This document shows, piece after piece, positions 1-60,855 of a stretch of 64,000 bases of DNA; position 1 is the first letter of the stretch; each line of letters starts with the position of its first letter. The notes below the pieces were generated by a model, which was given only the letters and a program-made list of their open reading frames with translations, had not been told where the DNA came from and ran no database searches. The DNA is from Podarcis liolepis (taxonomy: Eukaryota). A program made the translations under genes and the position numbers. The stretch lies in NCBI GenBank assembly GCA_965112155.1, contig OZ218113.1; one strand, 5' to 3'.

Positions 1-100
1 AGACCCTCAGGCTGGCCTACCTCCCAGGGTGGTTGTGAGGATAAAACGGGAAAAGAGAAGCATGCACCCCAGCTTGAGCTCTTTGGGTATAAATATAATG
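1..100 (+). mobile_element. Squam3-like SINE, 3' portion
   Basis: cctacctcccagggtggttgtgaggataaaa...gagctc...gggtataaat; similar to the copy at 14403. Confidence 0.6.
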
Positions 101-512
101 AAATCCTGCAAGAAAGCTAAGCAAGAAATGTGCCTCCATAACCAAATATATTTAAATGATGCTAGACTAGATGGGACCCAGCGGGACTCTGATGTTCTTA
201 CTCTTGAGGAACCCACCTCACAAGGGGCTTTGTCTGAAGCAATTTTTATCTTTTCAACACCTTTAAATTTGTGCAGCTTTTTAGTAGCGGATTTTTGCCT
301 TCCTGTTCCTTGTTTTATATTAACATCTCCCCTTTACTTATTAATGTTCTGCAGTTGTGTTTTAGCAGTGAAATCTTAGGAGAAAGTCCTATTGCTTTAT
401 CAAATTAAAGACGAGCAGTGTTTGACCTCCCCCAATGGCGTGCCTTTTCTATTGAAATGTGGGTAAAATCCGCCAAAGGGCTTTGTACCAAGCTGAGGCA
501 TAGCTGGGGGTA

Positions 513-21945: not shown

Positions 21946-22214
21946 AAAGAGAAGAAGAAGAAGAAGAAGAGAAGAGTTTGGATTTGATATCCCGCCTTTC
22001 ACTCCCTTTAGGGAGTCTCAAAGCGGCTAACATTCTCCTTTCCCTTCCTCCCCCACAACAAACACTCTGTGAGGTGAGTGGGGCTGAGAGACTTCAGAGA
22101 AGTGTGACTGGCCCAAGGTCACCCAGCAGCTGCAGGTGGAAGAGCAGAGACGTGAACCCGGTTCCCCAGATTACAAGACGACCGCTCTTAACCACCACAC
22201 CACACTGGCTGCCC
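21946..22214 (-). mobile_element. Full-length Squam3 SINE with (CTT)n tail (lacertid-type)
   Basis: Minus strand GGGCAGCCAGTGTGGTGTGGTGGTTAAGAGCG...CCGGGTTCACG...GCGGGATATCAAATCCAAACTCTTC(TTC)n. Confidence 0.85.
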
Positions 22215-22921
22215 CTGCCCACTTTCCTCTCTCCCCCAGAACCTTCTTGTTATTTTTTACAACAATGAATACCACAATAAATAATTATTAAACATTTATC
22301 CAGTAGTATATGTATATATAAGAATACTTAAAGCAATACAACAGCCAGATAAATTTCCAAGTGGGGCTAGGATATATGAGCAGTAGTTAAAAACAACTAA
22401 ATTAAGAGGGGCAGTAAGGAAGGAAATTCAGCTCATTTAAGGATTAAATAAGAACCCATGGAGGGATGTGTGGGGAAGTCGGAGAATGATGATCGCTCTA
22501 AAGTGCATGTATGGAAAATGCATAAAAAATGAATGTTCATAAGTGCACAATGTAAACACACATAAGTACATAAACCACATATCTTAAATATTACAGGAGA
22601 GCAATCCTGAAGCCATCTTGACTTTCTTAATGACCCCAAATATTTCCTCTGCTGTAGAAGGGACTATCTTGGGAAGAACCTTTCCCAATAGTTATTTTCA
22701 CTGACAAATCCTTCAAATCCAGTCAAAATAGCATGTTTTGTGTATGAGCAGGGGAGGTTCAGAAACAATTGGTAGTTACAATTTTCAAAAGAATGACCCA
22801 GACGGGTCAAGAAAAGGCAATCAGGAAACATTATCATGTATCTTGCTTGACGGACAGGAGACAAGACACACACTCAAATTTCTTCCAGTAGCACCTTAAA
22901 GACCAACTAAGTTAGTCCTTG

Positions 22922-22959
22922 GTATGAGCTTTCGTGTGCATGCACACTTCTTCAGATAC
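22922..22959 (-). ncRNA. Mirror copy of the minimal hammerhead motif on the minus strand
   Basis: Exact reverse complement of 22969-23006. Confidence 0.7.
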
Positions 22960-22968
22960 ACATCTTGT

Positions 22969-23006
22969 GTATCTGAAGAAGTGTGCATGCACACGAAAGC
23001 TCATAC
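22969..23006 (+). ncRNA. Minimal type I hammerhead ribozyme motif (Penelope-type)
   Basis: GTAT-CTGAAGA-A-GTGTGC AT GCACAC-GAAA-GC-TC-ATAC: stem I GTAT/ATAC, core CUGANGA, stem II, GAAA, palindromic AGCT in place of stem III, CUC cleavage triplet. Confidence 0.7.
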
Positions 23007-23349
23007 CAAGAACTAACTTAGTTGGTCTTTAAGGTGCTACTGGAAGGAATTTTTTTATTTTGACTATGGCAGACCAACACGGCTACCTATCTACTACTCA
23101 AATTTCTGTCGCATTTCTGCCTCTTTCTGTGACATTTATATGATGCTTTTGGGTGGTCTTTGGCTAAGGGTTTGGGCAATTTCTAAAGCCGTTAAAGTAT
23201 GTTACACACCTTTGTTCTGGGTCCTCACCCGCAGCGGTGGCGGGGACTCTATTGCAGAAGAAAAAAATAGTATCTGCCTTGCTTTGACTGCTTCCTGCCT
23301 CCATCAGTTCTTCTCTGACTAATAAGAGGGGTAGAAAGCTATGCATGGT

Positions 23350-23568
23350 AGAAGAAGAGGAGTTTGGATTTGATACCCCGCCTTTCACTCCCTTTAAGGA
23401 TCTCAAAGCGGCTCACATTCTCCTTTCCCTTCCTCCCCCACAACAAACCCTCTGTGAGGTGAGTGGGGCTGAGAGACTTCAGTATGACTAGCCCAAGGTC
23501 ACCCAGCAGCTGCATGTGGAGGAGCGGAGACACGAACCCGGTTCCCCAGATTATGAGACTACCGCTCT
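23350..23568 (-). mobile_element. Squam3 SINE, 5'-truncated
   Basis: Highly similar to 21946-22214. Confidence 0.85.
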
Positions 23569-25124: not shown

Positions 25125-25256
25125 CAGTGATGGCCAAACTCGGCCCTCCAGATGTTTTGGGACTACAACACCCACCATCCCTAGCTAACAGGACTAGTGG
25201 TCAGGGATGATGGGAATTGTAGTCCCAAAGCAGTTGGGCCAAGTTGGCCATCACTG
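25125..25256. mobile_element. hAT (Charlie/URR1-like) MITE of the abundant gggactacaac...gttgtagtccc family
   Basis: Perfect 13-bp TIRs CAGTGATGGCCAA / TTGGCCATCACTG; related degenerate copies near 5281, 6290, 12580, 26980, 29105, 29885, 30960, 33641, 36223. Confidence 0.8.

Positions 25257-33914: not shown

Positions 33915-60855
<26,941 letters not shown>

What the first reader, a model, noticed from the sequence alone, without database searches (positions are those of the whole stretch)
22872..23107. Penelope-type palindromic insertion carrying a hammerhead ribozyme on each strand
Seen: 81-bp inverted arms (one mismatch, C22917/A23011; 3-nt loop) bounded by a perfect 12-bp TSD, so the insertion is young. 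Each arm encodes GTAT-CTGAAGA-A-[GTGTGC AT GCACAC]-GAAA-GC-TC-ATAC on one strand (+22969-23006, -22959-22922). Established: Penelope-like elements carry minimal type I hammerheads with a palindromic stub for helix III, thought to cleave as dimers, and they often integrate with an inverted terminal segment. Inference: the element sits between two convergent genes, ~2.7 kb past the SERCA2a poly(A) signal. Read-through from either side first transcribes the antisense copy and then the ribozyme, so the RNA should fold into an ~80-bp duplex that hides the ribozyme. It could therefore act as a self-masked ribozyme, a dsRNA (Dicer/ADAR) substrate, or a cruciform-prone site.
Basis: partly seen in the sequence, partly recalled or inferred. 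Interest (0 to 1): 0.72.

Follow-up and report, generated by a model that had tools for sequence, protein, structure and literature searches.

The report
Twin-primed Penelope retrotransposon mini-palindrome
This 212-base mirror-image insertion is one of more than 1,500 similar by-products of a Penelope-like jumping gene with intact copies in this genome, and the ends of its sister copies suggest it was likely built on landing, when both cut strands of the target DNA copied the start of one RNA, rather than being a purposeful self-masked ribozyme.

Summary
The palindrome, 12-bp target duplication and two minimal hammerhead motifs are real. The insertion is positions +2 to +129 of a Neptune-type Penelope-like element with intact 926-aa ORF copies, plus an inverted copy of +2 to +79. 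The genome has 11,949 exact hammerhead cores and 1,548 back-to-back pairs with varied junctions, so palindromes are made per insertion. Sister copies point to twin priming on one RNA: 50 of 51 two-armed insertions have one long and one short 3' end; the short arm reaches further 5' in 28 cases against 8; arms share subfamily variants (229 vs 14 discordant); targets read AC-N12-GT; 64 of 160 arms stop at a TATA/Inr-predicted start, 2 at the cleavage site. Contigs from two other samples stop aligning at the duplication's end, as an empty site would. No transcription of this locus was shown; family-wide RNA shows likely A-to-I editing. The architecture is published; I did not find this mechanism in print. 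The scan reached the same twin-priming reading before on four other stretches of DNA.

The parts
22870..22871 (+). AC of the symmetric target motif AC-N12-GT (host DNA)
   Evidence: among 26 other 12-bp TSDs, A at -2 in 18 and C at -1 in 15
22872..22883 (+). Left copy of the 12-bp TSD; its last 8 nt can pair with element RNA +80..+87 (7 Watson-Crick pairs, one T.G), the inferred primer of the short arm
   Evidence: family short-end microhomology 1.51 vs 0.58 nt; contigs of X3 and X7 stop aligning at 22883
22884..22961 (-). Short arm: inverted copy of element +2..+79; C22917 is the derived base
   Evidence: most laid records carry T at 22917
22922..22959 (-). Minimal type I hammerhead motif, left arm
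22962..22966 (.). 5-nt non-element junction between the two arm 5' ends (hairpin tip), at the predicted transcription start
   Evidence: junction letters differ among the 50 places listed
22967..23095 (+). Long arm: element +2..+129 (hammerhead, U-tract, tail)
   Evidence: 131/132 identical to intact copy L130 over 22967-23098
22969..23006 (+). Minimal type I hammerhead motif, right arm; predicted cleavage 3' of C23002 (element +37)
   Evidence: cleavage not tested
23047..23095 (+). Unmirrored tail between the two inferred RT start regions; holds the element's first ATG (23066) and codons MADQHGYLST
   Evidence: tail concept from PMC3846280 and PMC11167929
23096..23107 (+). Right copy of the 12-bp TSD; first 3 nt also match element +130..+132
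23108..23109 (+). GT of the symmetric target motif (host DNA)
   Evidence: among 26 other 12-bp TSDs, G at +1 in 19 and T at +2 in 23

Best explanation
The insertion is a promoterless, ORF-less fragment of a Neptune-type Penelope-like retrotransposon, and its palindrome was likely made during integration by twin priming on one RNA. SHOWN: the long arm is element +2..+129, the short arm is +2..+79 inverted, and a 12-bp TSD inside an AC-N12-GT site flanks them. INFERRED steps: (1) A probably dimeric RT-GIY-YIG protein nicks both target strands 5' of GT(T), 12 nt apart. (2) One 3' end primes reverse transcription at the tail end (about +130), the other about 35-50 nt upstream near the U-tract, here shifted to +79 by an 8-nt primer-RNA match. 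(3) Both cDNAs run to the RNA 5' end just upstream of hammerhead stem I (TATATA at -30, Inr-like TCAGT), the upstream polymerase leading. (4) The two cDNA 3' ends are joined with a few extra letters and each is copied, giving a head-to-head palindrome with the tail on one side. The template was uncleaved RNA. The two hammerheads are passengers, predicted to be buried in the duplex if the locus is read through.
For: Parent: 926-aa ORF with RVT_1 and GIY-YIG, 3,008-bp tandem unit. Copies: 11,949 exact cores; 1,548 back-to-back pairs with varied junctions. Sample from C1:0-5.25 Mb, 109 insertions: 50 of 51 two-armed copies have one end at +126..129 and one at +66..107 (p=3e-15 against independent choice). 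The short arm reaches further 5' in 28, the long arm in 8, 14 ties (p=0.001). Three copies have a long arm that is only tail, with little or no overlap with the short arm. Clean single-armed copies with a TSD of 9 bp or more exist for both ends (15 short, 9 long), so both are start sites. No pair mixes a start-site end with a far-upstream end (0 vs 9.0 expected; 0 of 20,000 permutations). Arms share subfamily variants: 229 shared, 14 discordant, against 74 and 291 expected. Independent ORF-selected set: 21 of 22 rows one-long-one-short; the 22nd is part of the same compound insertion as another row. TSDs are 12-14 bp in 58 of 74. 64 of 160 arms begin at -8..+8 and 2 at +36..+40; genome-wide 30-mer counts step from 3,825 (-33..-4) to 11,949 (+8..+37). 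In vitro, an Anolis Poseidon protein cuts and extends both strands, starts at two sites bracketing the tail, is predicted dimeric, and uses uncleaved RNA (PMC11167929).
Against: This copy is a tie (+2/+2), so its own mechanism is inferred from sister copies. Shared variants also fit fold-back or later gene conversion between arms. The 14 discordant sites cluster in a few pairs (L124 5, L114 4, one C1 pair 2), which fits two RNAs or recombinants there. Eight pairs are nested. Deletions at palindrome centres after insertion could create some staggering. No cap-derived G excess before arm starts (35 of 119, p=0.84), so the start site rests on motif spacing and the end peak only. In the Poseidon assay the RT start site did not differ between top and bottom strands, and priming needed no homology, whereas I infer short primer-RNA matches. 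The C1 sample is the first 5.25 Mb of one contig, selected by exact-match patterns; arm ends near -8..-1 are blurred by chance matches.
Confidence: 0.7

Rival explanations
1. One cDNA primed at the tail runs to the RNA 5' end, folds back and copies itself (or self-primes on an antisense template, as proposed in PMC3846280), stops near the U-tract and joins the other target end; later trimming at the centre alters the arms.
For: Explains shared variants, the absence of mixed pairs, ties such as this copy, the 8 nested pairs, and snap-back-like junction letters.
Against: Predicts nested or balanced arms, but 28 are staggered against 8 nested, some by more than 1.5 kb (L099, L112, L116, L139). 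Cannot make tail-only long arms or the 15 clean short-only copies with TSDs without extra deletions.
Confidence: 0.17
2. Twin priming, but on two separate RNA molecules held by a protein dimer, possibly paired through the palindromic hammerhead (14-nt stem II palindrome or AGCU helix III stub).
For: Two monomers are predicted to pair through the 14-nt palindrome (-33.0 kcal/mol against -8.0 for one monomer). A few pairs carry clustered discordant variants. Minimal hammerheads are thought to act as dimers.
Against: Two free RNAs should pick start sites and 5' extents independently; found 50 of 51 one-each, 0 mixed pairs and 229:14 shared variants.
Confidence: 0.08
3. A non-autonomous palindromic element (MITE- or retrozyme-like) that copies itself as a unit.
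For: At least 1,548 similar palindromes; animal retrozymes are proposed to derive from PLE pLTRs (10.64898/2026.07.22.740005).
Against: Junction letters and both outer ends vary among copies; this copy is not a tandem array; it lacks the TATA region; 2.5-kb palindromes follow the same end rule.
Confidence: 0.03
4. A host-used switch at the ATP2A2/ANAPC7 boundary: self-masked ribozyme, Dicer/ADAR substrate or terminator.
For: Lies 2.6 kb past an AATAAA of the putative SERCA2a last exon; hairpin buries both ribozymes; family RNA shows likely A-to-I editing.
Against: Apparently absent in two other samples; thousands of equivalents exist; raw RNA reads of a related species gave zero depth over flank bins 22642-22849 in about 12% of one run (weak, since species and tissue differ); one mismatch only, so no time for a conservation signal.
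Confidence: 0.02

Closest known systems
EN+ Penelope-like insertions with an inverted 5' pLTR and a 30-40-nt tail at one end (Pen2a_Av, PMC3846280; scheme in PMC8557442)
   Same: Head-to-head inverted pLTR copies, tail on one arm only, short TSD, TATA and Inr-like motifs in the pLTR.
   Different: Here no ORF or promoter remains and both arms stop at the predicted start site. PMC3846280 favoured self-priming on an antisense template; the copy statistics here favour two primers on sense RNA.
Poseidon_Ac (PAc) of Anolis carolinensis in vitro (PMC11167929)
   Same: Two internal RT start regions bracketing the tail; hammerhead next to the ORF start; no sign that cleaved RNA is the template.
   Different: This family has the Zn-finger-like linker (Neptune/Nematis type) and a GT(T) nick preference, not ATT. 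The main text I read does not explain inverted arms or assign one start site to each strand.
Minimal hammerheads of metazoan PLEs (PMC4209133)
   Same: Intact core, extra base between positions 9 and 10.1, G10.1-C11.1, palindromic helix III stub, 4-bp helix I, pLTR location; opposite-strand pairs 100-700 bp apart were noted in Schistosoma.
   Different: Helix II is 5 bp plus a 4-nt loop (a 14-nt palindrome); the pair here is 9 nt apart.
LINE-1 twin priming
   Same: Second target strand primes on the element RNA, giving a 5' inversion inside a TSD.
   Different: L1 inversions are of non-overlapping segments and the second site is variable; here both sites are nearly fixed and the arms overlap, so a palindrome results.
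Non-LTR retrozymes (10.64898/2026.07.22.740005)
   Same: Short, non-coding, type I hammerhead, PLE pLTR origin.
   Different: Retrozymes are head-to-tail tandem arrays; this is head-to-head and made per insertion.

Membership tests
EN+ Penelope-like element | Parent has one ORF with RT and C-terminal GIY-YIG | tested here: met
   926-aa frame, RVT_1 E=1.4e-11, GIY-YIG E=2.1e-5
EN+ Penelope-like element | Tandem or partial-tandem units forming pLTRs, often with an inverted 5' copy | tested here: met
   3,008-bp tandem spacing in L129-L131; inverted arms
EN+ Penelope-like element | [quoted passage not shown] | tested here: met
   50 of 51 pairs; tail is 49 nt in this copy
EN+ Penelope-like element | RT phylogeny inside the PLE clade | not tested
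   no tree built; no named reference proteins fetched
Neptune clade | CX2-5CxxC linker upstream of GIY-YIG (shared with Nematis) | tested here: met
   C-X4-C-X2-C in the translation; definition from PMC8557442
Neptune clade | Phylogenetic separation from Nematis | not tested
   Neptune preferred because a vertebrate survey reports Neptune and Poseidon as the widespread groups
Minimal type I hammerhead | Core CUGANGA / GAAA / UH with stems I and II | tested here: met
   stem pair probabilities 0.79-0.98 in the monomer
Minimal type I hammerhead | Extra base between 9 and 10.1, G10.1-C11.1 pair, palindromic 15.2-16.2 | tested here: met
   A22980; G22981-C22994; AGCT 22998-23001
Minimal type I hammerhead | Self-cleavage as dimer or with protein | not testable with these tools
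   no pile-up of copy starts or read starts at +38; published activity is low or protein-assisted
Rfam hammerhead families | Covariance-model match | tested here: not met
   none among 36 matches at E<=10
Non-LTR retrozyme | Head-to-tail tandem units each with a hammerhead | tested here: not met
   head-to-head, single unit
MITE / self-copying palindrome | Fixed ends and fixed internal sequence among copies | tested here: not met
   junctions and ends vary
miRNA precursor | Rfam gathering score; discrete small RNA | tested here: not met
   best 69 bits against 90; small RNA not examined

The most novel reading that the evidence does not exclude
Penelope-like elements integrate by a symmetric double nick (AAC-N12-GTT) and obligatory twin priming on a single RNA: the tail is the ruler spanning two RT active sites, the upstream RT leads, the downstream RT follows by strand displacement, and the two cDNAs are joined end to end. 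This one cycle would explain the inverted pLTR, the one-sided tail, the 12-bp TSD and start-site-centred mini-palindromes, and would make the family a factory of thousands of 80-95-bp hairpins that feed A-to-I editing.
Probability: 0.5. Interest if true: 0.7.

Novelty: new member of a known kind. Interest (0 to 1): 0.45.

Why it matters
The locus itself is an ordinary, apparently unfixed transposon fragment. Its sister copies matter: how PLEs form tandem and inverted structures was called unresolved in 2021 (PMC8557442), and the 2024 in vitro work explains the tail but, in the text I read, not the inversion. The copy statistics give four sharp predictions (12-nt stagger at AC-N12-GT, one start site per strand, one RNA, run-off at the start site) that an existing assay format can test. 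A young family with intact, near-identical ORFs is good material for that test. Family-wide editing signals suggest such by-products are a real source of dsRNA.

Tried and rejected
BLAST-type DNA search of the own genome returned nothing because common words are skipped; patterns were used instead. One search used a pattern with the wrong spacer length (0 matches), corrected. Rfam gave no hammerhead hit. Cap-G test negative. Splice-acceptor reading of the CAG at -1..+2: no common upstream exon among junctions and no skipping joint among the 15 joints shown of 16; not favoured. Cleavage product as template: rejected (2 of 160 arms start at +36..+40). First shared-variant test was inconclusive at polymorphic sites (4 shared, 15 discordant) because most of these lay at +84, an alignment artefact of the T-tract; redone without +82..+91 and with longer arms. 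RNA coverage cannot locate the start site, since 86-92% of laid reads run on into unlike flanks, i.e. come from read-through of short genomic copies. No RNA holder on record was listed for the locus; this is not evidence on expression. The search of earlier findings by sequence found nothing. No protein tree, structure or complex prediction was run.

Full report
OBSERVATION. The sequence at 22872-23107 is as described. The arms are 81 nt with one mismatch and a 3-nt loop, the hairpin has z = -21.7, and a 12-bp direct repeat flanks the unit. The hammerhead core pattern occurs twice in the window against 0.11 by chance. It is the longest of the 16 inverted repeats listed for the window. Rfam gave no hammerhead match among 36 hits; the miRNA hits are below threshold.

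WHAT IT IS. The 30-nt core has 11,949 exact matches in the 1.57-Gb genome, with 0 for the reversed control. A neighbouring frame in one locus led to copies with an intact 926-residue frame holding RT, a C-X4-C-X2-C linker and GIY-YIG, in 3,008-bp tandem units. That is an EN+ Penelope-like element of the Neptune/Nematis linker type (definition in PMC8557442); no tree was built. Numbering from the A of TTCAGT, which has TATATA at -30, the right side of the insertion is element +2..+132 at 131/132 identity and the left arm is +2..+79 inverted. It has no promoter region and only the first 10-11 codons of the ORF. The motif fits the published minimal hammerhead: intact core, extra base before stem II, G-C closing pair, palindromic helix III stub, 4-bp stem I.

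NOT A SELF-COPYING UNIT. 1,548 places have two cores back to back within 30 nt, and the 50 listed show many different junctions. Outer ends and TSDs also differ. The palindrome is therefore made at each insertion.

COPY STATISTICS. I fetched the places listed up to C1:5.25 Mb and kept arms of at least 24 nt, 89.5% identity and a 3' end at +60 or beyond: 109 insertions, 51 two-armed and 58 single. Four later places's list were not fetched. (a) 3' ends fall in two groups, +126..129 and about +90..102. Fifty of 51 pairs have one of each (p = 3e-15 against independent choice). In a separate ORF-selected set, mostly from other contigs, 21 of 22 rows do; the exception is part of a compound insertion shared with another row. 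(b) The short arm reaches further 5' in 28 pairs, the long arm in 8, with 14 ties (p = 0.001). Three long arms are tail only. Of the 58 singles, 15 short and 9 long ones have a TSD of 9 bp or more and no inverted remnant; 27 had neither a TSD nor a remnant that I could find, and 7 had an inverted remnant. (c) No pair joins a start-site end to a far-upstream end (0 against 9.0 expected). Arms share diagnostic variants 229 times and differ 14 times, against 74 and 291 if independent. (d) TSDs are 12-14 bp in 58 of 74. The 26 other 12-bp cases show AC before and GT(T) after; this window reads AC-N12-GT. (e) TSD 3' ends match the RNA at the short start by 1.51 nt against 0.58 (0 of 5,000 shuffles; 65 of 74 used); here the match is 8 nt with one T.G. 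(f) 64 of 160 arms begin at -8..+8, 9 at -60..-9, 42 at +9..+60, and 2 at the cleavage site. Genome-wide 30-mer counts are 3,825 upstream of +1, 11,949 over the core, 15,732 just after the cleavage site and 12,886 further 3'; variant sites make these only roughly comparable.

MECHANISM. Points (a) and (b) need two primers, (c) needs one source, (d) suggests a symmetric double nick, and (f) suggests run-off at the RNA 5' end. The simplest joint reading is twin priming on one uncleaved RNA, with the two cDNAs joined at their 3' ends. The Anolis Poseidon protein shows the needed chemistry in vitro: both strands cut and extended, two start sites around the tail, a predicted dimer, uncleaved template (PMC11167929). 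Against: this copy is a tie and cannot decide alone; shared variants also fit fold-back or gene conversion; 8 pairs are nested and a few pairs have clustered discordant sites; there is no cap-G excess (35 of 119); and the in vitro paper saw no strand difference in start site and no need for homology.

LOCUS AND FUNCTION. ATP2A2 lies on the - strand and ANAPC7 on the + strand. A short exon at 26571-26558 looks like the SERCA2a end (recalled analogy) and an AATAAA lies 2.6 kb from the insertion. Contigs from X3 (same species label as the best holder) and X7 align to the left flank up to exactly 22883 and run on for 50 and 61 unaligned letters, as an empty site would; those letters were not shown, so this is indirect. 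Raw RNA reads of a related species had zero depth over 22642-22849 in about 12% of one run, which is weak evidence. If read through, the hairpin buries both ribozymes. Family-wide, four changes (22896, 22897, 22908, 22924) are under 0.2% in two DNA runs, 3.5-8.3% in contigs of a presumed RNA run, and 11-23% on one read direction in raw RNA reads, each A>G on the inferred RNA strand (strand inferred). That is likely A-to-I editing of the family, but DNA and RNA come from different animals, six further rows were not shown, and it is not tied to this locus. In the related species, element reads pile on +1..+130 with the same junction positions and almost none over the ORF start.

LITERATURE. Seen: PMC11167929 parts 1-2 of 4 (abstract, main text, start of methods); PMC4209133 abstract, Results, Discussion; PMC8557442 passages and section 15; PMC3846280 passages; 10.64898/2026.07.22.740005 part 1 of 5 and passages; PMC6155905 passages. 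No supplements were read. L1 twin priming, TATA/Inr spacing and ADAR behaviour are recalled. The inverted pLTR with a one-sided tail is published. Searches listed no paper whose title or abstract start points to twin priming for PLE inversions; most listed papers were not opened, and the library lacks most subscription papers. Four earlier AI notes of this scan on other DNA reached the same reading. I had recorded mine before seeing them, and they are not independent support.

VERDICT. A real, young, ordinary member of a known class; a host function is unlikely. Interest 0.45, for the testable integration model that the sister copies support.

Noticed in passing
window 21970-22188 and 23356-23568: Two copies of a roughly 220-bp interspersed repeat (89-98% alike in three blocks) on either side of the insertion.
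   Followed up: no
window 25148-25237 and 36228-36349: Related short imperfect hairpins, MITE-like.
   Followed up: no
window 56389-56608: GC-rich nested inverted repeats, including a perfect 27-bp arm pair with a 2-nt loop.
   Followed up: no
window 26571-26558 (-): Putative SERCA2a last coding exon reads AKLE-stop where mammals have AILE-stop (recalled).
   Followed up: partly
L127/L128 (G000:C1:101116500-101130900): Compound insertion with two intact 926-aa frames in opposite orientation and several partial units.
   Followed up: partly
L187, L197, L199 (C1 about 20.97, 30.93, 31.70 Mb): A small subfamily has T instead of C at the hammerhead cleavage base, linked to a second variant, in both arms.
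   Followed up: partly
window 22896, 22897, 22908, 22924 (family-wide reads): Strand-consistent A>G changes in RNA but not DNA runs, likely A-to-I editing.
   Followed up: partly
L126-L145: Many copies with long open frames are 99-100% identical to L130, so the family looks recently or currently active; at least two subfamilies differ in the tail.
   Followed up: partly
window 22981-22994: Stem II is a perfect 14-nt palindrome predicted to pair two RNAs (-25.2 kcal/mol), much stronger than the helix III stub (-2.5).
   Followed up: partly
L043, L044, L046: Some copies sit in or beside LTR-retrotransposon-like open frames.
   Followed up: no
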